From an uncultured Pseudomonadota bacterium (GTDB lineage: Bacteria; Babelota; Babeliae; Babelales; CAZZPM01), in assembly GCA_964655535.1 (NCBI GenBank), contig CAZZPM010000001.1, positions 1-42,655 on the forward strand: 42,655 nucleotides of DNA, in the 5' to 3' direction. The position numbers and the translations under genes are program-made. Of the stretch, positions 13,952-32,496 are shown one piece after another (the stretch's first letter is position 1; the number at the start of each line of letters is the position of its first letter). Below the pieces are notes generated by a model. That model saw only the letters and a program-made list of their open reading frames with translations. It was not told the DNA's origin and did no database searches.

Positions 13952-15136
13952 TTACTGATATAGATTTTTCTTAATTTTATTTTGTATATACAAAGCATAA
14001 AAAGCTTCTTGTAGTGCCAATAATGTATAGGTTAAACCAAAACTTAATTGAAAATCTAAGAAAAAAAGAATATAAGGATTATAAAATAAAAACAATGCTG
14101 CAAGAGTAACTAAAAGATGTGGCAAATGATACGGACGCTGCATTAACAATGCCATCATCAAAAGCAAAAATGACCAGACGCCTCGCATAAAAGAAACAGT
14201 GCCAGGAGTAACTAAAACATAGACAAAAATAAAGGGTGCAACAAAGTAAATCCAATTTCGTTTTCGCCCAAAAAAATAATAAAAAATTGTTTTCCAAAGA
14301 AATACAAATAACATAATGTGTAACCCTGAACGGGCTAAATAATGAATAATCCCCCAATAATTAAAAACATGTTTTAATGGATCTTGAGGCAAAACTTTAT
14401 CAATGCCCAAAAATAAAGCCCCATATAACGTGCGCGCAGGCTCTTGTAAACTTTGATATAATGTTTTTACATTCTGTCGCATGTTCAAAAAATAACCTTG
14501 CAGCATTGTTTGATTATGATGTATTAAAAAACAATGTTCAGGTTTCAAATACAACCAGCCCCATAATTGTTCTTTAGCTAGATAAAGATCAAATTCTTTT
14601 TTTTGATGAAAATGTATTTTTTTTGATTCTTTAGTAATTAAAATATAATCACCTTCCTGATATTGTGCTGATTTTGAAATAGTACAACGAACATATCCAG
14701 ACAGCCACAAAATTTGATCATCAATACTATCAATTTTTAAAACATAGATTTGCAACCATTTTTTATCTGCTATCGATTGAATATCAATGATCGTTGCTAA
14801 TATTTTTTCTGCTCTTGCAATAGAAATCCGATGCTGTTGATAAAGCCATTGATGTCCTTGCATTACAACCAATCCCATACAAAAAGAACTCAGAATAAAA
14901 AAAAATCGATATTTTTTTTGCCCTATAAAAAATATAGTTAGCCCAGAACAGAGCCACGCACCCAGAAAAATCTCTGACCATGGTCGATAAAATCCAAATA
15001 AAATTCCAAAAACAAATGCCCAAAAACAAATGCCAACAAAAAAGATTTTTCGCTCATGTACCATACTATTTATTTTCGATGCTGCTTCATAACTTAAAAT
15101 ATAAAAATCTTGCACTCCTTTCATTCCATTTTTCAT
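13952..15136 (-). CDS. ComEC/Rec2-family membrane protein, short form (N-terminal OB-like part plus competence channel domain, no metallo-beta-lactamase domain)
   Basis: 394-aa polytopic ORF. WGIIHYLARSGLHIMLFVFL resembles the ComEC HLLAISGLH motif. The ORF ends directly after the last TM helices. Confidence 0.6.
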   Translation of the reverse strand: MKNGMKGVQDFYILSYEAASKINSMVHERKIFFVGICFWAFVFGILFGFYRPWSEIFLGAWLCSGLTIFFIGQKKYRFFFILSSFCMGLVVMQGHQWLYQQHRISIARAEKILATIIDIQSIADKKWLQIYVLKIDSIDDQILWLSGYVRCTISKSAQYQEGDYILITKESKKIHFHQKKEFDLYLAKEQLWGWLYLKPEHCFLIHHNQTMLQGYFLNMRQNVKTLYQSLQEPARTLYGALFLGIDKVLPQDPLKHVFNYWGIIHYLARSGLHIMLFVFLWKTIFYYFFGRKRNWIYFVAPFIFVYVLVTPGTVSFMRGVWSFLLLMMALLMQRPYHLPHLLVTLAALFLFYNPYILFFLDFQLSFGLTYTLLALQEAFYALYIQNKIKKNLYQ

Positions 15137-20571: not shown

Positions 20572-21321
20572 ATGCAAAACAAAACAAATATTTTATATCG
20601 CATCAAAAAAGAAAATGAATGTATTGGCTATATATTTGGTTCTTTGCATAGGCATTTTAATCCTCAAGATCATGAGGAAAAAAAATCAGCACTCATGCCT
20701 TATGTTAACGAATGTAAAACATTTTTTTTTGAAATTGACCAGGGATCTTTTTATACTCAAATGCCTTTAGGCATTGAACGCATCATGCAAGAATTACTTG
20801 AATCAAGACGCGATACTGAAAAATTCTTTTTTGAAACACAATCTTTTCAACTTGCTATGTTGAATACGCGTCTTTGGTTCGGGAAAAATATTATTCAACT
20901 TCCGTGGCATCAATATAATTTTATCAAAAATCATGATCGATTAGCTACATACTTCAATAAAATTGCAATCAGTTTTTTTACCATTTACAATCATATTTAC
21001 AATATATTCACAGCAAGTGGTCATTCAAGTGCTGTTCATACTTTTAACAAAGAACAACAAGAGATTCTCATCTCGTTATTTAATGCATATAAACAAGAAG
21101 AAGTTTTTGAATTAAACAAAGAAGATCAAGCTCTTTATTTTATACAAGAACGAAATCATGATTATATCAAAATAATAAAAAATCATATTGCTTCAAAGCC
21201 ATTTTTTATATGCATTGGCGCTGGACACCTTGCAGGAGAGCATGGCATGATAAAACTTTTAGAAAAAGAAGGACTTGAATTATTCCCCCTTACTTTAAAA
21301 AAAGAAGCATTGCTCCCATAA
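20572..21321 (+). CDS. TraB/GumN-family protein
   Basis: N-terminal GYIFGSLH (GT(I/L)H box) and C-terminal ICIGAGHLAGEHGMIKLLEKEG (GaaHL.G..G...L...G box). Confidence 0.6.
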   Translation: MQNKTNILYRIKKENECIGYIFGSLHRHFNPQDHEEKKSALMPYVNECKTFFFEIDQGSFYTQMPLGIERIMQELLESRRDTEKFFFETQSFQLAMLNTRLWFGKNIIQLPWHQYNFIKNHDRLATYFNKIAISFFTIYNHIYNIFTASGHSSAVHTFNKEQQEILISLFNAYKQEEVFELNKEDQALYFIQERNHDYIKIIKNHIASKPFFICIGAGHLAGEHGMIKLLEKEGLELFPLTLKKEALLP

Positions 21322-21332
21322 AAAATCTTACT

Positions 21333-23918
21333 TTAAAGCGATTGACGACTTGAAGGCTTCTTCAAAAAAATGCTTTTATTTTTTGTTGTTGCATGCAGAA
21401 TAGGCTGATTTTTTTTATCTTTGTCTACTGCATCTTTAGTATTCTTTTTTCTAAAAATAATCGGGTCTGGACGAACAATCTCTTCTTTTTTGCTCTGTTT
21501 TATTTTTTGTCTTTTTTTATAAGCTTCAAGTTTTAAATGTGGTTGAAAATAAGGATCCTTTTTAATATTAACCTCTGTTGGCTGATATTTACCTTCTTTA
21601 AAATCATCAATTGGTCTAAAAATACCTGCACGTACATCTTTTAATCGTTGTTTAACATCTTGATTACGGGGCTTAAAAAACCAACGTTGCACTGGATCTT
21701 TTGATCCCGAATACGCATCAACATTAAGCACTTGATATTTTGCATAATCAAGCTTCATTTGTGTATAATCATCAGGGTTTCCTTCATTGCGCGGCTTAAT
21801 AATACTTGGTCTAATAAAAACAAAGAGATTCTGTTTATTATGCTTACGCTGTCTTCCTTTAAATAAATTACCTAAAAGCGGTATTTTTTCCAAAAAAGGT
21901 GTATGCCAGAAACTTTGATCTTGTCTTGAACTACCAAGTCCTCCTAAAACAAGCACTTGTCCTTCTCCCATGCTTGCACGTGTATCAAGCGTTCGTAATT
22001 GGCGACCAGGCTGATCAGCTCCCGCTTGATCTACAAATTCTTCTAAATTAATCGAGATAGAGAGATCAATAATACCATCAGCATTGATGCGTGGTGTTAT
22101 TTTTAAAACAGTATTTGCAGATAAATCTGTCTGTGCAATATTAGATCGGACTCCCGTTCCGCCCACAAAATCACCTTTAACCCGACGAACTTCATTTGAT
22201 TGTATACTACATGCCTGACGATTATTAGCAATTAAAAAAGGCTGAGAAAGAATATTAGATTGTTCTTCTATTAATAAAGATCGAATATATAACCAAATGT
22301 TTCCTTCTTCAAAACTCGCTCCTGGATCTCCAACAGTAAATACAGCTGAACGTGAATCTTCAGATGGAGATCCTATCTGATTTGCTAAATTTGTATTTAA
22401 TGAATTAATAAATCCAGTTTCAGCACTTCTAGCTGAAGCTTGTGCAGATTGAAATTGAATACTATCTCCTAATATATTTGTCGTTGGATTACGCAACTGA
22501 GAACTTAATTCACGTGATAATTGTTGCGTAACATCAACAATCAAAATTTCAAGAGCAACTTGTGGATAACTTTTATCAATAATATCAATAAGTTTTTGTA
22601 TTGCAGGCCGCGCTTCTTTATTGCAAGCAATAATTAAACGATTGCCACAGCCATAATTTGCATCTTCTCCATTTTTAGGTGTTTCTGCAGCAATGACCAC
22701 ATCTTGAAAAAATTTAAAACTACTTAAACTCTGTTTATCAGTGCTTCCTGCAGGTGGACGAATTGCTTTTTCAATAATTGCCTTTGCTCGGTCAGCTTCA
22801 ACGTAACGAAGATTGATAATCATCAATCGTGAATCTTCTGCATCATCAGGACGATCAAAAACATACACAAACTCAATAATACGATCAATATCTTCTTCTT
22901 GTCCCATTAAAATTAAATAAAAACGCTCTGAATCTGCAATGACTTTAGTTGAAGATGAAAAATAGGTTGATTCTTTTTTTCCTGCTGCAGAAACAAACCG
23001 AATACTCTCTTGTTTTTGACCATTTCCTATAATTTCATTATTAAATAATTGTGCAATTATTTCAGGATCAGTATGTTGTAATTTAATCATTTTAATTGAT
23101 TGCCGAAGTCCACCTCGATCAAGCTCATTAATAATTTTCATAGCAAATTTAATAGAATTAGATTTTTGAGTCATAATAATAACATCTAAATCATGCTGCA
23201 CTTCAACCGTGTTGTCACCCAAAATATTAACCAATATTTCATTCGCCATCGCGGCTTTAATATTCTTTAAATAATACGTGTAGCGAATAATAGCATCAGT
23301 ATCAGGCAAATCTTCAGGCTCAATGCCTTGACTTGATGAATAATAGGGAATTGGATGTTGCTTAACCATTTGACGCTGAATAATACGATGCACGCCTGCA
23401 ACTTCAACCATGCTATAGCCATTTTTCTCAAGTAATGTATGAACTAATGCAAGGGCCTGACTCAACGTATATGGCTGTTCAGTTTTCACCGAAACTTTAA
23501 TCTGTTCTAAATTTTTTTCAGGAATAATATTTAATTTTTTACGATCAGTAATATAAGAAACAAGACTCGCTAAAGAAACATCTTCGAAATTCAAATAAAT
23601 ATCTGCCACCTCTTTTTTTTCAGGTACAACATTGCCAAGGCCCTGTTTATTTTTTTCAGCTGATGTTTTTTGCATCACTTCTTTATTTTCAATTGCTGTA
23701 ATAGCGTCATTAAGAAGTTGCTCTGATCGCAACTCTAAAGATTCTTTCTTTATATCATCATTTTTTTCAATTTCCCGCATTGCTTCTTCTACTAAAAATG
23801 ATGCATCTTCGTCAATCAAAGCTCTTTTTGCGAACACAAAATCTGTCGTAGTCATCAGACTGAACAATGTCCAAAAGAAAATTATTTTAATTCTATTCAT
23901 ATACTTCTTAAGCCTCAT
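21333..23918 (-). CDS. Secretin B (GspD-type: signal peptide, N0, N1-N3-like domains, secretin core, 150-aa charged C-terminal extension)
   Basis: N0-like IYLNFEDVSLASLVSYITDRKKLNIIP. Secretin core ends in GQVLVLGGL...TPFLEKIPLLGNLFKGRQRKHNKQNLFVFIRPSII. Its start overlaps the stop of the upstream gene by 1 nt (TAATG at 23916-23920). Confidence 0.85.
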   Translation of the reverse strand: MRLKKYMNRIKIIFFWTLFSLMTTTDFVFAKRALIDEDASFLVEEAMREIEKNDDIKKESLELRSEQLLNDAITAIENKEVMQKTSAEKNKQGLGNVVPEKKEVADIYLNFEDVSLASLVSYITDRKKLNIIPEKNLEQIKVSVKTEQPYTLSQALALVHTLLEKNGYSMVEVAGVHRIIQRQMVKQHPIPYYSSSQGIEPEDLPDTDAIIRYTYYLKNIKAAMANEILVNILGDNTVEVQHDLDVIIMTQKSNSIKFAMKIINELDRGGLRQSIKMIKLQHTDPEIIAQLFNNEIIGNGQKQESIRFVSAAGKKESTYFSSSTKVIADSERFYLILMGQEEDIDRIIEFVYVFDRPDDAEDSRLMIINLRYVEADRAKAIIEKAIRPPAGSTDKQSLSSFKFFQDVVIAAETPKNGEDANYGCGNRLIIACNKEARPAIQKLIDIIDKSYPQVALEILIVDVTQQLSRELSSQLRNPTTNILGDSIQFQSAQASARSAETGFINSLNTNLANQIGSPSEDSRSAVFTVGDPGASFEEGNIWLYIRSLLIEEQSNILSQPFLIANNRQACSIQSNEVRRVKGDFVGGTGVRSNIAQTDLSANTVLKITPRINADGIIDLSISINLEEFVDQAGADQPGRQLRTLDTRASMGEGQVLVLGGLGSSRQDQSFWHTPFLEKIPLLGNLFKGRQRKHNKQNLFVFIRPSIIKPRNEGNPDDYTQMKLDYAKYQVLNVDAYSGSKDPVQRWFFKPRNQDVKQRLKDVRAGIFRPIDDFKEGKYQPTEVNIKKDPYFQPHLKLEAYKKRQKIKQSKKEEIVRPDPIIFRKKNTKDAVDKDKKNQPILHATTKNKSIFLKKPSSRQSL

Positions 23919-24487
23919 TACGCTTCTTCTATAACTTTTTTAAATCGTTTCATTGCAAGTACAAGATCAAGCAATATTAAAGAATCTTGCTTTTTTAATA
24001 CAACGCTGCTTACTTCCACAATATTTTCTTTATCTATGGTCTCTAGAATTTTAACAATTGCTTGTGCTGTCATTGGTTTAAAAGAAGCACGTAAAATTTC
24101 TTCTTCAAATAAATCATTATCGGGAATTGGATTTTTTTCTGTTTCTGCCCAATTTCCCTCAGGCGACAGATTCTGTTCTTTAATAAATTTTTCAAAATAG
24201 GTTTTAATACTCATATCTTTTCGTTGATTAATCTGTTCAATAAATTTTTGTTCTTGTTCTTGAGCTGCTTCGTACCGACCAATAAGAAGAGCATTCTCAG
24301 TTTTAAGCCGTTGAATCTGACGAATGTTTTGTATAATAATATTAGCAGAATCAGAAATATACCAGACAAGTCCACCAACTAAACAAACTGATATTGCTCC
24401 AGTACAAAGCAACATATATAAACGTTTTTGACTATTGTATGATACATAAAGATCAACTATATTTTTAATAAACTGCAAATATTTCAT
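23918..24487 (-). CDS. Bitopic inner-membrane protein occupying the PilO/GspM position
   Basis: 189 aa with one N-terminal TM (LYMLLCTGAISVCLVGGLVWYI), a coiled-coil stretch and a C-terminal alpha/beta-looking domain. It has 4-nt and 1-nt overlaps with its neighbours. The functional call is by architecture and position only. Confidence 0.4.
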   Translation of the reverse strand: MKYLQFIKNIVDLYVSYNSQKRLYMLLCTGAISVCLVGGLVWYISDSANIIIQNIRQIQRLKTENALLIGRYEAAQEQEQKFIEQINQRKDMSIKTYFEKFIKEQNLSPEGNWAETEKNPIPDNDLFEEEILRASFKPMTAQAIVKILETIDKENIVEVSSVVLKKQDSLILLDLVLAMKRFKKVIEEA

Positions 24488-26124
24488 ATTTCTCGAATTT
24501 TAAATAAAGTATTAAACTGCACGCTACCATCATCAGTTAATGATTCATTCATGCCATCAAGCGCTAATAATTTAGCTTCAGAAAATCGTTTTTCAAAATC
24601 AGCAAAATGCGTAAAATGATCAGTGCCTGTTTTTGATTTAAAAATACCAGAAACATCAATTTTTAATGGCCCCTCATCACGTGACATAGTAATAGAATCA
24701 ACCGCAACATCAAACCGATTTTTATCAAAAAGTTTTGTTAATTCATACCAAACTTCAAGAGGTGTAATACTATTTTTTTGTAATTCTTGCCATGCATCTT
24801 CTTTCATCTTTAATGCTGATTCTGCCATTGTTTGTGCACGCTTTAAGCTCAATAATGGAGGAACTTTTTGATTACTTGCTTGAATAATAGGCCGCAATGC
24901 CTCAACTTCACGTCGTTCAAGCTGACTATGTAATGCTTGCAAGTCACTCACATAATAAAATCCATGCACAGCAATCATTACTAAAACAGTTGCCATCATA
25001 CCCAAAGCAATCCCCCATAATCGAAAAAGAATATGCTCTTGCTTTTCTTTAAGAATATAACTTGCAAGAGAAAAATTTTCTTGCTCTGGTAAAATCATAC
25101 TTGACCCTAAAACAGCAGCAAAAGGAGTCCATGAACCAATATTTTTTCCTTTGTAGACTAAGCGCTTATCAGCCATTATTTTTTCGGGCTCAAATAAACG
25201 TACTTCAACTTGCAAACAACTACTTAAAAAAGAAGAAAGATCTGGAATACTTCCCTGTGAACCGGCAACCCACATATGGGGCAATTGACCACTAATTTCA
25301 TAGTGAACTAACAAAACCTGCAAAACAGATTGTATTTCAGATGCAAGATCATTCCATTCTTTTTCAAGTACTGCATCAAGCGATGAAGCAGAAAAACCTG
25401 CCATAACTTTTTTTAAGACATCATAATAATGTCCACCAGATTGATTAATATAATTTTTTACAAGTGTCCCAACGCCACGATATATATTTTTAACAACCTG
25501 AATTCCTTTAGTTGTGCATAAAACAATCTTTGTGGTCTGTTCATATAACAAAATAAAACAATGAAGCCCTTCTTGTGGTGCGTATAAAACTGTTCGTTGA
25601 AAAATAGCATGCAATGCAACAATATCAGTTGTAATAAGATCTGGCGTAATAATATCTGAATAAAGAGCAACATGCTGTTGAATATCAGCATTCCGAGCAG
25701 CTGCTACAAAAACCCTAGCATTTGATCCTTGCACGTCATTGATCATAAAACTCATTGTTGCTTCATCAAGCGCAAAAGGAATTAAAGGCTCAACTTCGTA
25801 AGGCAAAACAAATGAAATTTTTTCTGCATCAACAAAGGGTAATTGTAATTCTTTAAAAATAATAACTGAAGAAGGAACAATAATACGAACCGCGTCAAAT
25901 GCCGGAACCGTCTTAATAAAACGCTGAATAACATCATGAATATACGCGGTATCTTTCTCTTCTTGTAAATATTCTTGATGCAATGTTTCAATAACTATCT
26001 TACGAGCACCCTCATAGACAACAGCTGCATAAAAAAAACTACCCTCTATGCTCAAGCTTATGTAACGCTCACCATATAATCGATAGCTACCAATGCGGGC
26101 TGGCAAGAACAATTGGGTAATCAT
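24484..26124 (-). CDS. PilM-like actin-fold cytoplasmic domain fused through one TM helix to a PilN/GspL-like periplasmic domain
   Basis: The N-terminal ~350 aa show a PilM-like pattern (ISLSIEGSFFYAAVV; VRIIVPSSVIIFKELQLPFVDAEKISFVLPYEVEPLIPFALDE). A TM helix follows (LWGIALGMMATVLVMIAVHGFYYV), then a ~150-aa C-terminal domain. ATGA overlaps at both ends. Confidence 0.55.
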   Translation of the reverse strand: MITQLFLPARIGSYRLYGERYISLSIEGSFFYAAVVYEGARKIVIETLHQEYLQEEKDTAYIHDVIQRFIKTVPAFDAVRIIVPSSVIIFKELQLPFVDAEKISFVLPYEVEPLIPFALDEATMSFMINDVQGSNARVFVAAARNADIQQHVALYSDIITPDLITTDIVALHAIFQRTVLYAPQEGLHCFILLYEQTTKIVLCTTKGIQVVKNIYRGVGTLVKNYINQSGGHYYDVLKKVMAGFSASSLDAVLEKEWNDLASEIQSVLQVLLVHYEISGQLPHMWVAGSQGSIPDLSSFLSSCLQVEVRLFEPEKIMADKRLVYKGKNIGSWTPFAAVLGSSMILPEQENFSLASYILKEKQEHILFRLWGIALGMMATVLVMIAVHGFYYVSDLQALHSQLERREVEALRPIIQASNQKVPPLLSLKRAQTMAESALKMKEDAWQELQKNSITPLEVWYELTKLFDKNRFDVAVDSITMSRDEGPLKIDVSGIFKSKTGTDHFTHFADFEKRFSEAKLLALDGMNESLTDDGSVQFNTLFKIREI

Positions 26125-29000
26125 GCATTCCTTTTTCTATAATGAGGCCCTGCTCCCATGCTCAAAATATCTTTTAAACGATTACGCGAATCGATCATTA
26201 TTTCATTTTTTTCTTCTGGGACTAATAACTTTAATAGCTTTTTTTCATGATCTTCTTTCGCTTCATCAAAAACATTTTGTTCATCAGCTTGAAATGTTTT
26301 TTTAAATTGTTCGCGCTCTTTTTCTAAAAGAGGATCTTTTTCTTTTTCAACCTTTTTCTCTGCATGTAATACAAAGGTGTTATCTTTTATCGGCTCTTCT
26401 GCAGGCAACTCTTCGGGAGTCACATCAAGTTCATTAAATTGTGGTCCATATTTTTTTTCATCTCGCTCTGTTTTTGATCGATAGTCAGGATCATTTTTAA
26501 TATCAACAATTGAAGGTTGATATCGTGCTGTTGCAAAATCAACAACTTTGTGAGCATAAGTTTCGCCATCAGGGTTGAAGAACCAATTATGAATCGGATC
26601 TTTAACTTTTTTTGTATCAATCGCAGCTTCAATACTTTCTTTTGCTCCATGCAACTTCATCTTTGTATACAAATCCATACCAGGTGTTTGACGGGGCTTA
26701 ATAATTGTTGGACAGACAAAAATAAAAATATACTGTTTATTGATACTTCTTTGTTTATTTTTACAAAGCCATCCAAGAATAGGAATACGTGATAAGAAGG
26801 GCGTTCCACCTTCACTTTGTTTTAAACTGGTTTTAACAAAACCTCCCAACACTAACACCTGTCCACTTGCAACAGAAACATTCGTTGCTAATTTTTTCTC
26901 TTGTGTTCCCTCATTGGGTAAAAAATCAGCTATAGTTGCATCAACTTGTAGCGTAATAATACCATCAAGATTAATTTGCGGTGTATACTCAATATGTGTT
27001 ACAGCATCTTGATCAGTAAATGACTTGGCTTCCCCAATGTCTCCTCCATCACTCACTGCTTGTTCTTTGATAATACGTCTTTTATCGCCAACTTTAATCG
27101 TTGCTTTAACGCGATTTGCAACCGTAATAAATGGCTGTGAAATAACACTTGCATTAACTTCGCTTTTGAGTGCCTTGAAAACTGCCCAAATATTTACATC
27201 TTTACCAAAACTTACAACAGTCGACCCTCGACCAAAACCTTGTACTAATTCTAAAAGATTACCAAAAAGACTCATTGGTTTCCCCACTCCATCTCGCTCA
27301 GGCACAACGCCTGCAAATCCTGCAGATTGAAAACCAATATTATTACCCAAGCTCCCTTTAAATTTTGGTCTAAATTGACCACCAAGCTCTTTAGCATCTT
27401 CCGCATTAACACTGACTACCAACGTTTCAATAAAAACAGAAGGTTGAGCTGTATCAAGCGCTTTTAATGTCGGCTTTAAAATTTTCCAATCACGAGGGTC
27501 GGCACAGGAAACAATCAATTGATTTCCCCGCTCGTCAACTTGAAAGTTCATATTTTTAAAGTATTTTACACCGCCTAAAACGCCGCCATGTTTTGCTGCA
27601 GCTCCATTGTCAGAATTATTAATAACTTCTGTTAACAAATCACGCATCTGTGTTGCTTCTGCGTATTGAAACGTAAATACTTTTAGTGGCGACTTAGTAA
27701 ACCGTTCTTCTGCTTCAAAATAACGATCTATAAAATCTTCTATAACTTGAATTGACTTATGATTACCTAAAAGAATTAAAGAATTTGAACGATCTTCAGA
27801 AACAATTTTTGTTGTTGATGAAAAATATTCAACTGATCCTTCAGATTTTTTACCTAAAAGTCGCGCTAGCGTACTTGTTTGTGGCGAGCTTATTAAACTT
27901 TCGAGCAAGGTTTTAACCTCAAGAGCATTCGCTTTTTGGAGCCGACGAACAACAACCGTCTCTTGCAATCCTGATTGATCTAATTCTTGAACAACCTTGA
28001 GAGCCGATTTAATGTTGAGCGATTTATCCGTAATAATAAAACCATTAATATTAGGCTGTGGTAAAAATCGACTATCAGGACCTAACATTGATGTAAGAAG
28101 ACCAGAAATTTCAGAAATACCAATATTTTGTAAAAAGCCAACATATCGAATTGTTGCATCTGAATTTGGCAATGCATCGACTGAAGAACCAAAAAATGAA
28201 GGAAGTGGCTCTATACTTTTTCCTTGTCGTGGAATAATTTTATGCACATTTGCTTTGTTCCCTTCAGGGCCAACTTCAATAATACTAAACCCATGCATTT
28301 CAAGCATCGTCAAAAAAACCTGCCATGCACCATCAAGACTCAGTGGCTCTCGGATTGCAATCGAAATTTCAACATTCTCAGTTGATCTATCAGGAATAAT
28401 ATTAATTTTTTTGATTCCTGCAATATAATTGATAAAACTTGCTAGTTTTATTTTTTCAAAATTCAAATAAATCGCTTGATCTTGCAGCGTGATAACAAGA
28501 TCTTTTTTTTTCTTTTTTTTCTGAGATACCTTTGGCAATCCTTCTTGTTTTGCAAAAATATCTTGTTCATGTTCTTCGTATGAAATCGCTTTTTCAAGCA
28601 TTTCAGTTGCTTCAATTTCTTTATTTAAGTCGAGCTCATGGGCTTCTTTGTGTACAGAAGAACGATTTTTTTGATGAACTACATTTTTTTTAACAGGCAA
28701 TCCACGACGTGATTGTAATCCAGCCAAAGCATGAGGTTGCTTCGATCTTTGTCGCATGTGTGATCTGTCTCGATCTATTTTTTTCGATCTTGCATGAGGT
28801 CGGGCAACTAGCAGAGCATCTTCATCAACAATATTTACATTTTTATTTTCTTGACCTGAATCTTGATTAAATAAGCCTCTTCGTCGACGAAAACGAGCAA
28901 CTCGTTGATTGTTGGATCTTTTATCTTTTTGCTCAAGAGCTGCATATGCATCAACAGAAAAAAACAAACAAAAAAATAAAATTGTCATAGTTATCTGCAT
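26121..29000 (-). CDS. Secretin A (GspD-type: signal peptide, ~150-aa Arg/Lys-rich spacer, N0-N3-like domains, secretin core, 188-aa charged C-terminal extension)
   Basis: Start set at ATG 29000 (MQITMTILFFCLFFSVDAYA, GGGG 5 nt upstream). N0-like IYLNFEKIKLASFINYIAGIKKINIIP. Core ends in GQVLVLGGF...TPFLSRIPILGWLCKNKQRSINKQYIFIFVCPTII. Confidence 0.85.
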   Translation of the reverse strand: MQITMTILFFCLFFSVDAYAALEQKDKRSNNQRVARFRRRRGLFNQDSGQENKNVNIVDEDALLVARPHARSKKIDRDRSHMRQRSKQPHALAGLQSRRGLPVKKNVVHQKNRSSVHKEAHELDLNKEIEATEMLEKAISYEEHEQDIFAKQEGLPKVSQKKKKKKDLVITLQDQAIYLNFEKIKLASFINYIAGIKKINIIPDRSTENVEISIAIREPLSLDGAWQVFLTMLEMHGFSIIEVGPEGNKANVHKIIPRQGKSIEPLPSFFGSSVDALPNSDATIRYVGFLQNIGISEISGLLTSMLGPDSRFLPQPNINGFIITDKSLNIKSALKVVQELDQSGLQETVVVRRLQKANALEVKTLLESLISSPQTSTLARLLGKKSEGSVEYFSSTTKIVSEDRSNSLILLGNHKSIQVIEDFIDRYFEAEERFTKSPLKVFTFQYAEATQMRDLLTEVINNSDNGAAAKHGGVLGGVKYFKNMNFQVDERGNQLIVSCADPRDWKILKPTLKALDTAQPSVFIETLVVSVNAEDAKELGGQFRPKFKGSLGNNIGFQSAGFAGVVPERDGVGKPMSLFGNLLELVQGFGRGSTVVSFGKDVNIWAVFKALKSEVNASVISQPFITVANRVKATIKVGDKRRIIKEQAVSDGGDIGEAKSFTDQDAVTHIEYTPQINLDGIITLQVDATIADFLPNEGTQEKKLATNVSVASGQVLVLGGFVKTSLKQSEGGTPFLSRIPILGWLCKNKQRSINKQYIFIFVCPTIIKPRQTPGMDLYTKMKLHGAKESIEAAIDTKKVKDPIHNWFFNPDGETYAHKVVDFATARYQPSIVDIKNDPDYRSKTERDEKKYGPQFNELDVTPEELPAEEPIKDNTFVLHAEKKVEKEKDPLLEKEREQFKKTFQADEQNVFDEAKEDHEKKLLKLLVPEEKNEIMIDSRNRLKDILSMGAGPHYRKRNA

Positions 29001-29007
29001 AATACCC

Positions 29008-30192
29008 CTATCGCATGTACGTATGTGGTGAACGCTTATGCATATTATCAATCAATCGCTTACGAATTTTCATAACTGTATCATAATAATCAGAAGAATC
29101 TTCATTTTCAATCATTGCTCTTCGATCTACTTTTTCTTGACGAGGGTTTATTTTATTAAACGGCGTTGGTTGCGTATTTACTTGAGCTTGAATTTCTGTT
29201 GCTTTTGTATCATTTCCGCTCGAATATCCCGCACTCATCATTGACTTGCCTGATAATGAAAGAGGAATATCAGAAAGTATACGTCGCATTGTGTATCGAA
29301 GAGCAACTTCTTGCTTGTTTCGCATGAGACGAATATCAATCGTTCCATTTTCTTTTGTTGCAACAACTTCTTGATATGCCTTCAACATCTTTTTTTGATC
29401 CGTCAACATAATATTATTAATACTCAGAATAAGATCATGCGAAGCTAGACCAAATGCTTGTAACAAAGCAATATTTTTTTTTTCTTCGCATTGAATCCCC
29501 ATGCATTGATTATTTTGAAAGGAAGGAAACAACTGAAATAATTCTATAAATGCACCTAAACTTGCTATTTTTTTTTGACATTGCTCCGGATCAACTTGAA
29601 ATTCTCCCGGACTGAGCGGAATAATTACTTTTTTCCATTCGCTATTTCCTTCTGCTGTCTTTACCAGTAAGTCCTCATCTCTTCTTAGGAAAAATGTTTC
29701 TTGTTGTCCATTTGAACGAAAAAAAATAACTCTATTTTTCATAATTTTTGCAATAAATGCATCTTTCACTTGATCACCATTATAAAAAATTTGTTCTTTT
29801 AATGTTTCATCAGAAATAATAGCAACACTTTTTTCTTCATCTGCCGCTAAAACAATTCCATTTAGAATAATATTGAGCGCCGGCAACATTTCCATTTCTT
29901 TGGGAGCAGGCGGAATAATAATAGAAGGCCAACTAAATGAGGGCATTGCAGAGATCTGCTTAGCTGCCTTCAAAGGCGGATCAAGTGGATTAAAAGTAGC
30001 AAAAAGATCATTTTGAAATATGAATTCTGGTACAATTCCAGGACGCACATCTTGATGAGCTGCCGCTTCTAAAAGTCCTTTTGTCCGTGCTTTAATCTGA
30101 GGAGGTACTTGTAATAAAAAAAAATAAAACATCGAGCTACTGATCGCAATCAAAATTAAAAAAGAATTAAGCAGTTGCAGTTGTTGTATCAT
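29008..30192 (-). CDS. GspC-like protein (N-terminal TM, PilP/HR-type beta domain, PDZ-like domain)
   Basis: TM helix (LNSFLILIAISSSMFYFFLL). HR-like segment LNGIVLAADEEKSVAIISDETLKEQIFYNGDQVKDAFIAKIMKNRVIFFRSNGQQETFFL. PDZ-like segment (LQAFGLASHDLILSINNIMLTDQKKMLKAYQEV...TIDIRLMRNKQEV). A 7-nt gap separates it from secretin A. Confidence 0.55.
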   Translation of the reverse strand: MIQQLQLLNSFLILIAISSSMFYFFLLQVPPQIKARTKGLLEAAAHQDVRPGIVPEFIFQNDLFATFNPLDPPLKAAKQISAMPSFSWPSIIIPPAPKEMEMLPALNIILNGIVLAADEEKSVAIISDETLKEQIFYNGDQVKDAFIAKIMKNRVIFFRSNGQQETFFLRRDEDLLVKTAEGNSEWKKVIIPLSPGEFQVDPEQCQKKIASLGAFIELFQLFPSFQNNQCMGIQCEEKKNIALLQAFGLASHDLILSINNIMLTDQKKMLKAYQEVVATKENGTIDIRLMRNKQEVALRYTMRRILSDIPLSLSGKSMMSAGYSSGNDTKATEIQAQVNTQPTPFNKINPRQEKVDRRAMIENEDSSDYYDTVMKIRKRLIDNMHKRSPHTYMR

Positions 30193-30280: not shown

Positions 30281-31315
30281 TTAAGGAACAGGAATTTGGT
30301 CAATAATCTGCATAATTATATCATCAACTTTAATATCATCAGCTTCAGCTTCATAGGTTAATAAAATACGATGTCGTAAAATATCCAATGCCAATGTTTT
30401 TAAATCATCAGGAATAACAAAATGACGTCCTTTTAAAAAAGCAAATCCTCGTGATGCTTGCAATAATGCAATGGTCGCTCTTGGCGATGCTCCGTACGCA
30501 ATATATTGTTGCAATGCAAGGCCATATTTTTCTGGATACCGCGTTGCTTGCACTAAAACTAAAAGATAATCGATAACTTTCTCATCAATATAAACCTGCT
30601 GAACAATTTCTTGCCCTTTGATAATCTCAGGACTACTTAAAACTTTTTGCGTAGAATGTGGTAAGCCTAAACGAGCAAGAACTTCTTTTTCTTCTTCAAG
30701 CGCTGGATAATCAAGATGTACTTTAAACATAAAGCGATCTACTTGCGCTTCAGGCAATTGATAAGTTCCTTCTTGATCGATAGGATTCTGTGTCGCAAGA
30801 ACTAAAAAAGGTTTTTCAAGCCGATAACTTTGATCACCAATCGAAACTTGATGCTCTTGCATCGCCTCTAAAAGAGCTGATTGCACTTTTGCAGGCGCTC
30901 GATTAATTTCATCTGCAATAACAAGATGAGCAAAGATTGGCCCTTTTTTTGTCTGAAATGCTTGTGTTTGAGGATTGTACATTAATGTACCAATGACATC
31001 AGCAGGCAATAAATCAGGAGTAAATTGAATACGATTAAATGAAACGCCCAATGCATGTGCTAATGTTTTTACCAATGTTGTTTTTGCAAGACCTGGAACA
31101 CCTTCTAATAAAATATGACCGTTACATAAAAGACCAATGAGTAAGCGATCGATAATAGCATCTTGGCCTACAATTGTTTTTTTTATCTCTTGCTTTAAAA
31201 CGGCCCAACGAGAACTTTCTTCTTTAATACTATCAACAATCTCAGTCGCAATCTGCTTTATCATAGTACAATACTCCTCATCATTGATCAAAATGTTTAA
31301 TGGCTTTTTTATCAC
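30281..31315 (-). CDS. MoxR-family AAA+ ATPase
   Basis: HILLEGVPGLAKTTL (Walker A, MoxR type), VIADEINRAP (Walker B), TQNPIDQEGTYQLPEAQVDRF, and the C-terminal lid SPRATIALLQASRGFAFLKGRHFV. The alternative start ATG 31264 cannot be excluded. Confidence 0.85.
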   Translation of the reverse strand: MIKKPLNILINDEEYCTMIKQIATEIVDSIKEESSRWAVLKQEIKKTIVGQDAIIDRLLIGLLCNGHILLEGVPGLAKTTLVKTLAHALGVSFNRIQFTPDLLPADVIGTLMYNPQTQAFQTKKGPIFAHLVIADEINRAPAKVQSALLEAMQEHQVSIGDQSYRLEKPFLVLATQNPIDQEGTYQLPEAQVDRFMFKVHLDYPALEEEKEVLARLGLPHSTQKVLSSPEIIKGQEIVQQVYIDEKVIDYLLVLVQATRYPEKYGLALQQYIAYGASPRATIALLQASRGFAFLKGRHFVIPDDLKTLALDILRHRILLTYEAEADDIKVDDIIMQIIDQIPVP

Positions 31316-31323
31316 TTATGCAA

Positions 31324-32496
31324 TTATATCTTGCCAGGCAATGCATGTAAACTTTTGCCGATACGATTCCATCGAACATATCGCTTCCAAAAAGTAAATG
31401 GATGTTTTAATAATTCAAAAATCCACCACGATTCTTCACTATCAACCGAATATAAAATAAAACTTGCACGACCATCAATCAAAGAACCATCTAAAAAAAG
31501 CCATCGGCGCGAATCATCACTTTGACGACGACTATCGCCCATTGCCCAATATTTTCCTTCAGGAATTTTTAAAGGCCCAAATGTATCTAAATCCGTCATA
31601 TCTGTCGGCTCTCTCAACAAAGGCATTCCTGTTTCTGGATGCAAAAATACTTCATGCGGCTCCATGTAATGAAATGGTTGATCTCTAAACGATTTTGTTC
31701 GGTCATAGGAATAAAAAACAAATTTTTCTGTTTTTTCAAATAACCCCGGAAGCCCAAATGAACTAAATAATCCTTGAGGCAAAAATCCTGTTGTTTTTTT
31801 TAATGCAATGAGAGGATATGGATTAACATAATCCGATTCATCAAGCTTTTTTCCATTTAAATAAACAGCCGCGCGGCCATTTTCTACTTTACCTTCAATG
31901 ATATCACCGGGAAGTCCAATCGCTCGTTTTACCCAACTTTCTGGACCATTTTTTAAGCCTAAAAAGGAGATGCCAATTCCCACATATTTTTGCCAATATT
32001 TTCCCCAACGAGTATGTTCATCGTACATAAATGTTGGATCAGTAAAGATAATCATATCGCCATGCTTGACTTGTTGTCCAAATCGATATGCAAATTTATT
32101 TCCCCAAACACGATCACCTTCTAAAATAGTTCGTGAAGCACTGCCGGTCGGAACATGGTATAAACCAAAAATAAAATTTCTAAAAAATAATGCTAAAGTT
32201 CCTGCTATAACAAATGCTTCAATCCATTGACGAAGCATTGATTTTGACGATTCATTGAGAGTAACATAAATTAACTTGAGCTCTTTGTATAAAGATTTTG
32301 TTTCTGACGAATATGAACGATTTTGTATTGCCACAACAAGCTGGTCTGCGCGCTGAATATTGTTTTCATATAGAGCAGCCTCTTGATAATAGCCATCATT
32401 TTTCCATTGTTTTGCCAATTGTACAAAGTAAGCTCTTTTTTCTTGGTACTTACGTGCAAAAAACGAATACCAAATAGCCCACAAAGCTGTCCACAT
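31324..32496 (-). CDS. lepB: Signal peptidase I
   Basis: TGSASRTILEGDRV (Ser box), VKRAIGLPGD (Lys box) and GDSRRQSDDSRRW (GDNR..S.DSR box). Two N-terminal TM segments. Confidence 0.8.
   Translation of the reverse strand: MWTALWAIWYSFFARKYQEKRAYFVQLAKQWKNDGYYQEAALYENNIQRADQLVVAIQNRSYSSETKSLYKELKLIYVTLNESSKSMLRQWIEAFVIAGTLALFFRNFIFGLYHVPTGSASRTILEGDRVWGNKFAYRFGQQVKHGDMIIFTDPTFMYDEHTRWGKYWQKYVGIGISFLGLKNGPESWVKRAIGLPGDIIEGKVENGRAAVYLNGKKLDESDYVNPYPLIALKKTTGFLPQGLFSSFGLPGLFEKTEKFVFYSYDRTKSFRDQPFHYMEPHEVFLHPETGMPLLREPTDMTDLDTFGPLKIPEGKYWAMGDSRRQSDDSRRWLFLDGSLIDGRASFILYSVDSEESWWIFELLKHPFTFWKRYVRWNRIGKSLHALPGKI

What the first reader, a model, noticed from the sequence alone, without database searches (positions are those of the whole stretch)
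21333..30192. Two-secretin envelope cluster (GspC-like / secretin A / PilM-PilN fusion / PilO-GspM-like / secretin B) lacking any ATPase, platform or pilin gene
Five same-strand ORFs are packed with a 7-nt gap, two 4-nt ATGA overlaps and a 1-nt TAATG overlap, so they are almost certainly one translationally coupled unit. Both large ORFs are full GspD-type secretins with N0 (IYLNFE.(I/V).LAS(F/L)..YI...KK(I/L)NIIP), further N domains and a secretin core (GQVLVLGG...TPFL..IP(I/L)LG.L.K). They are clearly paralogous but divergent. Canonical T2SS, T4P, competence and filamentous-phage systems use one secretin species per machine. Here two paralogues bracket the inner-membrane alignment subunits. 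One is paired with a GspC/PilP-type HR+PDZ protein, the other with a PilM-N fusion (GspL-like topology) and a PilO/GspM-like protein. Nothing in the operon, or in the whole 42.7-kb window, resembles a GspE/PilB ATPase, GspF/PilC platform, (pseudo)pilin or prepilin peptidase. Possible readings are a heteromeric or stacked double secretin, two outer-membrane channels sharing one inner-membrane scaffold, or a hybrid T2SS/T4P-derived apparatus with its motor encoded elsewhere. I do not know of a characterised system with this gene order.
Basis: partly seen in the sequence, partly recalled or inferred. Interest (0 to 1): 0.75.

Follow-up and report, generated by a model that had tools for sequence, protein, structure and literature searches.

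The report
Dependentiae two-secretin type II secretion operon
This is the conserved envelope-scaffold operon of the type II secretion / type IV filament machinery of the parasitic phylum Dependentiae (TM6). It always carries two old, intact copies of the outer-membrane pore (secretin), while the motor, platform and pilin genes lie elsewhere in the genome.

Summary
Five tightly packed minus-strand genes encode GspC, a GspD-type secretin (A), a PilM-type GspL (PilM domain, membrane helix, periplasmic domain), a GspM/PilO-fold protein and a second GspD-type secretin (B).

The window comes from a Dependentiae (TM6/Babeliales) bacterium. The same gene order occurs in every complete locus of about 50 Dependentiae species genomes. 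Six genomes carry a third, tandem secretin.

A and B form position-specific ortholog groups, and all domains (N0, N1-N3, core) are conserved in both. The duplication is therefore ancient and neither copy is a pseudogene.

No GspE, GspF, pilin or peptidase gene lies within 10 kb in any Dependentiae locus. Published tables for Babela and TM6SC1 list two PulE, two PulF, pilins and PulO scattered elsewhere, one PilM and no PilT.

"Two gspD copies in all TM6 genomes" was published in 2016. I did not find the gene order or the MoxR linkage described.

My reading is that one shared GspC/L/M scaffold serves two secretin channels. Whether the rings are separate or mixed is unresolved. This is a new variant of a known kind, of moderate interest.

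The parts
30281..31315 (-). MoxR-family AAA+ ATPase gene, invariantly the gene directly upstream of gspC in Dependentiae. Gene callers start it 8 codons in, giving 336 aa.
   Evidence: Pfam AAA_3 7.8e-65 and AAA_lid_2 4.7e-21. It is present directly upstream on the same strand in all ~49 loci that reach that far, with a median gap of 88 nt to gspC, while the outer flanks differ.
31323..31351 (-). Best sigma-70-like promoter match of the region (TTTACA-17-TATAAT), just upstream of moxR and overlapping the end of lepB.
   Evidence: 11 of 12 matches, the top hit of the scan; sequence shown. This is a consensus match only. The total number of matches in the region is not above the shuffled expectation.
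29008..30192 (-). gspC: N-terminal membrane anchor, HR domain, weak PDZ domain.
   Evidence: Pfam T2SSC 2.5e-09 (37.6 bits, cut-off 27) and PDZ_2 0.074. NCBIfam GspC_delta 8.8e-22 and TIGR01713 3.1e-18, both below their curated cut-offs. The L022 ortholog hits PDZ_2 at 3.1e-05.
26121..29000 (-). Secretin A (gspD1), 959 aa: signal peptide, basic N-terminal extension, N0, N1-N3, secretin core, C-terminal extension.
   Evidence: Secretin 7.3e-31 (model 1-169 of 169), Secretin_N 3.2e-19 (3 stretches) and N0 7.3e-10. TIGR02517 GspD 2.7e-70 over model 1-594 of 600. Gene callers use the ATG start. The upstream-position copies form one clade.
24484..26124 (-). PilM-type GspL: cytoplasmic actin-like PilM domain, one membrane helix, periplasmic PilN/GspL-C-like domain.
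   Evidence: PilM_2 1.2e-12 and T2SSL 0.0013. Among 45 orthologs: PilM_2 in 42, T2SSL in 39, PilN in 4, GspL_C in 1. The family profile hits M. xanthus PilM (3jc8) at 8.8e-33.
23918..24487 (-). GspM/PilO-fold bitopic protein, 189 aa.
   Evidence: No Pfam hit for the window copy, but 15 of 45 orthologs hit Pfam T2SSM (best 5e-06). An AlphaFold model of low confidence (pLDDT 63.7) has PilO (3jc8_O, 2rjz, 5uvr), Amuc_1100, EpsM (1uv7) and PulM (7ze0) among its top Foldseek matches, all with weak E-values.
21333..23918 (-). Secretin B (gspD2), 861 or 855 aa: signal peptide, N0, N1-N3, secretin core, S-domain-like helices, C-terminal extension.
   Evidence: Secretin 1.1e-30 and N0 2e-05. TIGR02517 5.2e-67 over model 1-595 of 600. 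The AlphaFold model (pLDDT 68.4) best matches PulD 6hcg_A (3.1e-29), then GspD, EpsD and ExeD; PilQ is weaker at 1e-14.
21303..21317 (-). Terminator-like hairpin with a T-run, 16 nt after the secretin B stop codon. Probable operon end.
   Evidence: sequence. Pattern match only.

Best explanation
The cluster is the conserved envelope-scaffold operon of the single type II secretion / type IV filament apparatus family of Dependentiae: (moxR)-gspC-gspD1-gspL(PilM-type)-gspM-gspD2.

It encodes only the parts that span the periplasm and outer membrane. These are the inner-membrane alignment proteins GspL and GspM, the connector GspC (HR domain plus PDZ), and two GspD-class secretins. The energising and filament parts (GspE/PilB ATPases, GspF/PilC platforms, pilins, prepilin peptidase) are encoded at scattered sites elsewhere in these reduced genomes.

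The two secretins are ancient paralogues that have both been kept under constraint across the phylum.

Most likely mechanism (inferred, not shown): each paralogue forms its own homo-oligomeric channel. Both channels dock through their conserved N0 domains on the one shared GspC/GspL/GspM scaffold. They serve the two ATPase/platform pairs of the genome: one a secretion endopilus for the large effector repertoire, the other a pilus or DNA-uptake filament that uses a GspD paralogue in place of the missing PilQ.

Tight translational coupling would keep the scaffold and both pores in fixed proportion.
For: Shown:
- Gene identities.
- The organism is Dependentiae.
- Identical gene order in every complete locus of ~50 species genomes, with a third tandem secretin in six of them.
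- The 4-nt secretin A/gspL overlap is kept in 39 of 54 loci.
- Outer flanks vary (38 clusters of flanking genes) while moxR plus the five genes stay constant.
- A and B form position-specific groups. Identity is A-A ~50%, B-B 40-48% and A-B 31-37%. In the neighbour-joining tree the upstream copies are monophyletic, and third copies are lineage-specific duplicates of B.
- All domains are conserved in both paralogues: N0 0.38/0.32, core 0.40/0.35 mean pairwise identity.
- No E. coli GspE/F/G/O or HofB/C homologue, and no prepilin motif, lies within 10 kb in any Dependentiae locus. The same search found them in the two outgroup T2SS loci.

From the literature:
- COG counts, given as Babela / TM6SC1: PulE 2/2, PulF 2/2, PulG 3/0, PilE 1/1, PilV 2/0, PulO 1/1, PilM 1/1, PilT 0/0, PulD 3/2 (PMC4378268).
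- The Babela genes are scattered: PilV near 58 kb, PilE and PulO near 301 kb, PulF near 518 kb.
- PulF homologues are stand-alone genes.
- Yeoh et al. report two gspD and no pilQ in all seven TM6 genomes they compared.

The 2 ATPases + 2 platforms + 2 secretins versus 1 GspC/L/M count is what motivates the shared-scaffold model.
Against: - Nothing here shows that the two secretins form separate rings, that both bind GspC, or which ATPase/platform pair goes with which pore.
- I could not locate the motor genes in the genome of this window itself. Only a ~45-kb contig is available.
- Co-transcription is inferred from spacing, not measured.
- No pili were seen on Babela, according to Yeoh et al., which weakens the 'second machine is a pilus' part.
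- The distance matrices of A and B co-vary more than any other pair (partial r 0.77, rank-based 0.51). That is at least as compatible with a mixed ring as with separate rings. It is also confounded by the shared fold.
- The GspM assignment rests on sub-threshold hits and a low-confidence model.
Confidence: 0.5

Rival explanations
1. Mixed (hetero-oligomeric) or stacked secretin. A and B co-assemble into one outer-membrane channel, as suggested for the GspD/GspDL pair of the mitochondrial T2SS-derived system. One machine would then have a two-species pore.
For: Both genes sit in one translationally coupled operon in every genome. Both keep all ring-forming domains. Their evolutionary distances co-vary more strongly than any other pair in the operon (raw r 0.97, partial 0.77, rank-partial 0.51). 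Co-occurring GspD and GspDL paralogues in the mitochondrial system offer a precedent, read there as 'elaboration of the pore' (PMC8134430).
Against: To my knowledge, characterised bacterial secretins are homo-oligomers. At 31-37% identity between A and B, the many subunit interfaces of a 12-15-mer would have to stay cross-compatible. Some lineages add a third copy, which fits independent channels more easily than a fixed mixed stoichiometry. The rate covariation is confounded by the shared fold. The count of two ATPases and two platforms suggests two machines.
Confidence: 0.2
2. One machine with alternative pores. A single GspE/F-driven T2SS uses A or B interchangeably or conditionally, for example for different cargo classes or for the infectious versus the replicative stage. 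The second PulE/PulF pair would be unrelated to this operon.
For: Both secretins are GspD-class rather than PilQ-class. Dependentiae have a very large predicted secreted proteome: 44% of coding sequences carry a signal peptide in Chromulinavorax. Lineage-specific further duplication of B looks like diversification of cargo or surface exposure. No pili were observed on Babela.
Against: The operon structure argues for co-expression rather than stage-specific expression. Retention of exactly this pair across the sampled phylum suggests that both are needed at once. There are no expression data for these genes in the material I could read.
Confidence: 0.2
3. Self-contained motor-less apparatus, or an apparatus driven by the adjacent MoxR ATPase. 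The operon would work without any GspE/PilB-type motor.
For: No type IV filament motor lies within 10 kb in any of ~55 loci. MoxR is invariantly linked.
Against: MoxR is a soluble AAA+ chaperone-type protein with no membrane or periplasmic domain. GspL's cytoplasmic domain exists to dock a GspE/PilB-type ATPase (established knowledge of the family). GspE/PilB and GspF genes are present in Dependentiae genomes. The MoxR distance matrix does not co-vary with GspC (partial r -0.05, within the null) and co-varies only marginally with secretins A and B: 0.17 and 0.07 against a null maximum of about 0.16.
Confidence: 0.03

Closest known systems
Canonical type II secretion system (Gsp/Pul/Eps; gspC-D-E-F-G-H-I-J-K-L-M-O operon)
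   Same: GspC has a membrane anchor, an HR domain and a PDZ domain. Both secretins are GspD-class with N0-N1-N2-N3, a secretin core and S-domain-like helices; the best structural match is PulD 6hcg. GspL topology and a GspM-fold partner are present. The C-D and L-M adjacencies are kept.
   Different: There are two (sometimes three) secretin paralogues instead of one. Genes E to K and O are removed from the operon and scattered. The cytoplasmic domain of GspL is a full PilM-type actin-like domain (PilM_2 well above threshold, T2SSL only sub-threshold). A MoxR gene is invariably linked. Both secretins carry long, poorly conserved N- and C-terminal extensions.
Type IVa pilus alignment subcomplex PilM-PilN-PilO-PilP-PilQ
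   Same: There is a PilM-like cytoplasmic domain; the family profile hits M. xanthus PilM at 9e-33. A PilO-fold protein is present, along with an HR-domain connector to the secretin N0 domain. Published suggestions hold that one GspD copy replaces PilQ in this phylum.
   Different: PilM and PilN are fused. The connector is a membrane-anchored GspC with PDZ, not a PilP lipoprotein. No AMIN domain was reported in either secretin, and they score far better as GspD than as PilQ (237/227 versus 130/117 bits). There is no PilT in Babela or TM6SC1.
Deltaproteobacterial-type T2SS (e.g. locus L062, Desulfosudaceae)
   Same: The best GspC model is NF041515 'GspC_delta'. L062 also has a PilM-like GspL near gspC-gspD.
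   Different: L062 has one secretin, followed directly by gspE, with gspF and pseudopilins in the same locus.
Mitochondrial T2SS-derived system of jakobids, heteroloboseans and malawimonads (GspD plus GspDL)
   Same: Two co-occurring secretin-core paralogues are retained together across a lineage (PMC8134430).
   Different: That system is eukaryotic. Its N domains are split into separate proteins, and GspDL is highly divergent. No GspC/L/M operon context applies.
GspA/GspB (ExeA/ExeB) secretin-assembly ATPase system
   Same: An ATPase gene is genetically linked to gspC-gspD. It could in principle help secretin assembly. This is an analogy from my own knowledge only.
   Different: ExeA is a membrane protein with a peptidoglycan-binding domain. 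MoxR here is a soluble AAA_3 protein with no such domain. No functional link was tested.

Membership tests
Type II secretion system (T2SS) | GspD-class secretin: N0 plus three Secretin_N domains plus a secretin core | tested here: met
   Both secretins align full-length to TIGR02517 (model 1-594 and 1-595 of 600; 237 and 227 bits, below the equivalog cut-off of 351) and hit Pfam Secretin and N0. The model of B best matches PulD, GspD and EpsD.
Type II secretion system (T2SS) | GspC: membrane anchor, HR domain, PDZ or coiled coil | tested here: met
   Pfam T2SSC scores 37.6 bits against a cut-off of 27. GspC_delta 8.8e-22 is below the NCBIfam cut-off. PDZ is weak in the window (0.074) but 3.1e-05 in the L022 ortholog. 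The N-terminal hydrophobic helix is visible in the sequence.
Type II secretion system (T2SS) | GspL: cytoplasmic domain, membrane helix, periplasmic domain | tested here: inconclusive
   The topology matches. The T2SSL hit is sub-threshold in the window (18.6 bits against 25.5), although 39 of 45 orthologs hit it at E<0.1. PilM_2 is the stronger match.
Type II secretion system (T2SS) | GspM | tested here: inconclusive
   The window copy has no Pfam hit. 15 of 45 orthologs hit T2SSM (best 5e-06). A low-confidence model retrieves PilO, EpsM and PulM folds with weak E-values. A profile comparison against E. coli GspM alone gave nothing.
Type II secretion system (T2SS) | GspE ATPase, GspF platform, GspG-K pseudopilins and GspO peptidase encoded with the system | tested here: not met
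   These are absent from the window and from the 10-kb flanks of ~55 Dependentiae loci. They are present elsewhere in the phylum according to published COG tables and the PulF search.
Type II secretion system (T2SS) | One secretin species per system | tested here: not met
   There are two paralogues in every locus and three in six loci.
Type IVa pilus machine | PilQ secretin with AMIN domain(s) | tested here: not met
   No AMIN domain was reported for either secretin. The PilQ model scores 130 and 117 bits against a cut-off of 284, well below the GspD scores. Yeoh et al. report pilQ absent in TM6.
Type IVa pilus machine | Separate PilM, PilN, PilO and a PilP lipoprotein | tested here: not met
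   PilM and the PilN-like part are one polypeptide. The connector is GspC-like with a membrane anchor and PDZ, and its N-terminus shows no lipobox.
Type IVa pilus machine | PilB and PilT motor pair | not testable with these tools
   The whole genome of this organism is not available. The literature table gives COG2804 (PulE/PilB) x2 and COG2805 (PilT) 0 in Babela and TM6SC1.
MoxR AAA+ chaperone systems | AAA_3 ATPase domain with lid domain | tested here: met
   AAA_3 7.8e-65 and AAA_lid_2 4.7e-21.
MoxR AAA+ chaperone systems | Adjacent VWA or DUF58 partner gene | tested here: not met
   The neighbours are lepB upstream and gspC downstream. In other loci the upstream gene varies. A BatD-SH3 gene lies about 9 kb away in the window.

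The most novel reading that the evidence does not exclude
Dependentiae build a type IV filament nanomachine of a layout not yet described. A single GspC/GspL/GspM inner-membrane scaffold is wired to two different secretin paralogues, either as two pores fed by two motor/platform pairs or as one mixed ring. A cytoplasmic MoxR AAA+ chaperone, co-inherited with the operon across the phylum, would act in its assembly. This would be the first bacterial case of obligatory dual secretins in one apparatus.
Probability: 0.3. Interest if true: 0.75.

Novelty: new variant of a known kind. Interest (0 to 1): 0.5.

Why it matters
Dependentiae are obligate intracellular parasites of protists, with about 1-Mb genomes. 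Babela's authors report a T2SS as the only secretion system they detected, so this apparatus is presumably the route for their very large effector repertoire.

Keeping two or three large secretin genes, each about 2.5-3 kb, in such reduced genomes across the whole sampled phylum means that both have a required role. A scaffold shared between two secretins, or a mixed secretin ring, would extend the accepted 'one secretin species per machine' rule. It would also give a bacterial counterpart to the GspD/GspDL pair of the mitochondrial T2SS-derived system.

On the practical side, operon-based detectors such as TXSScan-type models will miss or mis-class these scattered systems.

The invariant MoxR linkage offers a testable lead on MoxR function, which is poorly understood in general.

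Tried and rejected
- **Sigma-54 control.** A sigma-54-dependent response regulator lies upstream of moxR in 13 of 48 loci. No TGGCAC-N5-TTGCA-like element occurs upstream of moxR or gspC in 49 loci, whereas control regions gave a few chance hits. Dropped.
- **Promoter and terminator scans.** The total number of promoter-like sites is not above the shuffled expectation (42 against 48.7). Only the positions of the top promoter match and of one terminator-like hairpin are suggestive.
- **Profile comparison with E. coli K-12 proteins.** The GspM-like family against E. coli GspM gave no signal. The GspL-like family against E. coli GspL was weak (probability 12.7%). A single divergent sequence makes a poor target.
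- **PDB sequence search with the 189-aa family profile.** It gave only coiled-coil noise such as protein A and GCN4.
- **Shallow alignment for the 189-aa protein.** The last homology search found only 5 homologues, so the structure model is of low confidence.
- **Finding the motor genes in the same genome as the window.** This was not possible. The contig is all that is held, and the tools cannot walk along other contigs.
- **McLean et al. 2013 (TM6SC1).** The paper could not be retrieved.
- **Denise et al. 2019.** The type IV filament survey does not mention Dependentiae, TM6 or Babela.
- **The TTG-extended 976-aa ORF for secretin A.** It overlaps gspC by 44 nt and was rejected in favour of the ATG start, which is preceded by a 7-nt gap.
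- **Evolutionary-rate covariation.** Computed, but judged unable to separate a mixed ring from separate rings.

Full report
**1. Observation**

The five ORFs exist as described on the minus strand:

| Gene | Coordinates | Length |
|---|---|---|
| gspC-like | 30192-29008 | 394 aa |
| secretin A | 29000-26121 | 959 aa from the ATG that gene callers also use |
| PilM-type fusion | 26124-24484 | 546 aa |
| small bitopic protein | 24487-23918 | 189 aa |
| secretin B | 23918-21333 | 861 aa (callers: 855 aa) |

The 976-aa TTG ORF listed for secretin A is an over-extension.

The junctions match the finding: a 7-nt gap, two ATGA overlaps and one TAATG overlap.

Pfam and NCBIfam confirm the domain assignments:
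- T2SSC in the first gene, above the gathering score.
- N0, Secretin_N and a full-length Secretin domain in both large genes.
- PilM_2 in the fusion protein.

A and B are 31% identical over 766 columns.

The other window ORFs I scanned encode housekeeping and envelope proteins. Examples are TyrRS, a MurA-type enzyme, enolase, a short ComEC, NusA, IF-2, LpxK, an MraY-like transferase, signal peptidase I and BatD. None is a GspE/PilB, GspF/PilC, pilin or prepilin peptidase, and no prepilin leader motif is present.

One omission needs noting. A MoxR-family AAA+ ATPase gene (31315-30281) sits 88 nt upstream of gspC on the same strand.

**2. Organism and distribution**

The proteins of the window match a contig in NCBI assembly GCA_013558355.1. 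The closest named homologues are from Candidatus Dependentiae / Babeliales / candidate division TM6.

I scanned one genome per GTDB species with an alignment of four PilM-type GspL proteins. This returned 58 loci. Fifty-five carry Dependentiae-type proteins; a few of these are labelled Pseudomonadota or Epsilonproteobacteria, probably mislabelled MAGs. One further locus (L006) gave almost no usable sequence. The remaining two are conventional T2SS loci from a Nitrospirae and a Desulfosudaceae MAG.

BLASTP mapping of all ORFs shows the order moxR - gspC - secretin - gspL(PilM-type) - gspM-like - secretin in every Dependentiae locus that is long enough. Six loci (L022, L025, L036, L043, L055, L057) have a third secretin directly after the second.

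The packing is conserved:
- The 4-nt secretin A/gspL overlap occurs in 39 of 54 loci.
- Median gaps elsewhere inside the five genes range from -1 to 8 nt.
- The moxR-gspC spacer has a median of 88 nt (range 27-223).

The genes outside this block vary. Flanking genes fall into 38 clusters. Enolase lies downstream in 22 of 53 loci, and a sigma-54-type response regulator lies upstream in 13 of 48. The conserved unit is therefore six genes, not five.

**3. The individual proteins**

*Secretins.* Both are GspD-class. TIGR02517 aligns end to end with each (237 and 227 bits), well ahead of PilQ (130 and 117 bits), MshL and SctC. An AlphaFold model of B (39-sequence alignment, pLDDT 68.4) shows N0, three N domains, the barrel and S-domain-like helices. 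Its best Foldseek matches are PulD (6hcg, 3.1e-29), ETEC GspD, EpsD and ExeD. PilQ structures score around 1e-14.

*GspC.* The protein fits GspC (membrane anchor, HR, PDZ) and not the PilP lipoprotein.

*The fusion protein.* Its cytoplasmic domain is a full PilM-type actin-like domain. The family profile hits M. xanthus PilM at 8.8e-33. Among 45 orthologs, PilM_2 is found in 42 and T2SSL in 39. A membrane helix and a periplasmic domain follow, which is GspL topology.

*The 189-aa protein.* It has no Pfam hit of its own, but 15 of 45 orthologs hit T2SSM (best 5e-06). A low-confidence model (pLDDT 63.7) retrieves PilO, Amuc_1100, EpsM and PulM as top folds, with weak E-values. I call it GspM/PilO-fold with moderate confidence.

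**4. History of the two secretins**

Across genomes, upstream copies resemble each other (~50% identity), and so do downstream copies (40-48%). Upstream versus downstream copies reach only 31-37%.

I built a neighbour-joining tree of 106 secretins. It shows three things:
- All Dependentiae sequences group together, apart from the E. coli and Desulfosudaceae GspD.
- The upstream copies are monophyletic.
- The third copies are lineage-specific duplicates of B.

The downstream copies are paraphyletic in this simple tree, so I claim no more than an ancestral duplication that predates the sampled radiation.

Every domain is conserved within each paralogue. For N0 the mean pairwise identity is 0.38 (A) and 0.32 (B); for the core it is 0.40 and 0.35. 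Neither copy is decaying.

**5. Where the rest of the machine is**

A search with E. coli GspE/F/G/H/I/J/K/L/M/O, HofB, HofC and PpdD found no homologue within 10 kb of the cluster in any Dependentiae locus. The only exception was one 38-bit GspJ hit, which I regard as noise. The same search readily found GspE, GspF and GspG in the outgroup loci. The prepilin motif scan agreed.

The supplementary tables of Pagnier et al. 2015 (PMC4378268) give these COG counts:

| COG family | Babela | TM6SC1 |
|---|---|---|
| PulD | 3 | 2 |
| PulE/PilB | 2 | 2 |
| PulF | 2 | 2 |
| PulG | 3 | 0 |
| PilE | 1 | 1 |
| PilV | 2 | 0 |
| PulO | 1 | 1 |
| PilM | 1 | 1 |
| PilT | 0 | 0 |
| MoxR | 1 | 0 |

In Babela these genes are far apart: PilV near 58 kb, PilE and PulO near 301 kb, and one PulF near 518 kb, flanked by unrelated genes. 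Homologues of that PulF in two other contigs are likewise stand-alone genes.

Pagnier et al. call the T2SS the only secretion system they detected. Yeoh et al. 2016 (PMC4776705) state that T2SS and possibly T4P components are core TM6 orthologs. They also report that pilQ is absent, that two gspD copies occur in all genomes, and that one copy may replace pilQ. Deeg et al. 2019 make a similar remark for Chromulinavorax.

I could not verify the motor genes in the genome of this particular window.

**6. Mechanism**

Shown:
- This is a T2SS-type outer-membrane and alignment module.
- Its layout is conserved across the sampled phylum.
- It carries two constrained secretin paralogues.
- The motor and filament genes are detached from it.

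Inferred: one copy each of GspC, GspL and GspM, against two secretins, two ATPases and two platforms, suggests a single scaffold serving two pores. I favour separate homo-oligomeric rings. Characterised bacterial secretins are homo-oligomers (my own knowledge), and some lineages add a third copy.

A mixed ring is not excluded. The distance matrices of A and B co-vary more than any other pair in the operon: raw r 0.97, partial 0.77 against a null maximum of 0.14, and rank-based partial 0.51. Two proteins of the same fold are expected to behave alike in such a test, so this does not decide the matter.

The mitochondrial T2SS-derived system, with co-occurring GspD and GspDL, is the nearest precedent for paired secretin paralogues (PMC8134430).

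*MoxR.* Its invariant position argues for co-regulation or a role in assembly. However, it is a soluble AAA+ protein and has no adjacent VWA partner. Its distances co-vary not at all with GspC and only marginally with the two secretins. A functional link therefore remains a lead, not a finding.

*Transcription signals.* A strong sigma-70-like match lies just upstream of moxR, and a terminator-like hairpin lies just after secretin B. These would fit a six-gene transcript, but they are pattern matches only. No sigma-54 promoter motif was found.

**7. Comparison and novelty**

The system works like a T2SS/T4P hybrid. It has GspC and GspD-class pores from the T2SS side and a PilM-type cytoplasmic domain from the pilus side.

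It fails two operational T2SS criteria, namely co-located E/F/G genes and a single secretin. It fails the T4aP criteria of a PilQ secretin with AMIN domains, separate PilM, PilN and PilO proteins plus a PilP lipoprotein, and a PilT ATPase.

The existence of two gspD genes in TM6 is already in the literature. I did not find the C-D-L-M-D order, its invariance across about 50 species, the tandem third copies or the MoxR linkage in the papers searched. Absence from that library is not proof of absence.

I rate it a new variant of a known kind with moderate interest (0.5). If dual secretins on one scaffold were demonstrated, the interest would be considerably higher.

Noticed in passing
window 30281-31315 (-): A MoxR-family AAA+ ATPase gene is invariantly the gene directly upstream of gspC in all ~49 Dependentiae loci that reach that far, although the genes beyond it differ. 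It has no adjacent VWA or DUF58 partner. A possible role in assembly of the apparatus is untested.
   Followed up: partly
L022 14573-16933; L025 14914-17361; L036 14451-16811; L043 14493-16829; L055 14568-16934; L057 14568-16934: A third secretin gene lies directly after secretin B in six genomes. In the neighbour-joining tree these are lineage-specific duplicates of B. Babela is reported to have three PulD genes.
   Followed up: partly
window 26100-26124 (-), N-terminus of the PilM-type GspL: The first residues (M1, F6, L7, P8; consensus MIxxxFLPE) are invariant in the four-sequence alignment, and P8 is invariant across 45 orthologs. The motif resembles the PilN N-terminal 'INLLP' peptide that binds PilM in type IVa pili (my own knowledge). 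It may be an intra- or inter-molecular docking peptide.
   Followed up: no
window 6508-11127 (-): A 1539-aa ORF carries three Methyltransf_FA (farnesoic acid O-methyltransferase-type) stretches and a Tectonin domain. These domains are typical of eukaryotes, so the protein may be a host-derived effector.
   Followed up: no
window 39967-42429 (-): An 820-aa ORF combines BatD domains with a C-terminal SH3_3 domain (a BatD/BatE-like fusion). Bat operons normally begin with a MoxR gene, which here lies about 9 kb away, next to gspC.
   Followed up: no
window 13952-15136 (-): A ComEC-like ORF of only 394 aa has DUF4131 and Competence domains, and no metallo-beta-lactamase domain was detected. A ComEC gene lies near the cluster in L003 as well. 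This is relevant to the idea that one secretin serves DNA uptake.
   Followed up: no
L010, L020, L030, L035, L045, L047, L053, L056, L059, L063: MAGs titled 'uncultured Pseudomonadota' or 'Epsilonproteobacteria' carry the full Dependentiae-type cluster. Their taxonomic labels are probably wrong.
   Followed up: no
window contig; NCBI GCA_013558355.1, record JACCDH011226608.1: The contig number in the accession implies an assembly with millions of contigs. It could be a eukaryotic host genome or a large metagenome containing this Dependentiae symbiont. The host was not identified.
   Followed up: no
window 21333-21700 and 26121-26600 (-), C-terminal parts of both secretins: Both paralogues share a conserved stretch after the secretin core (…DP[IV]xxWFFxP… and …QPxxVxIKxDP…), followed by poorly conserved lysine-rich tails. 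It appears specific to this lineage, and its function is unknown.
   Followed up: no
L002 1004-2293; L003 1460-2737 and 11 further loci: A response-regulator / sigma-54-activator gene (NtrC/PilR-like) lies directly upstream of moxR in 13 of 48 loci. No sigma-54 promoter motif was found upstream of moxR or gspC.
   Followed up: yes
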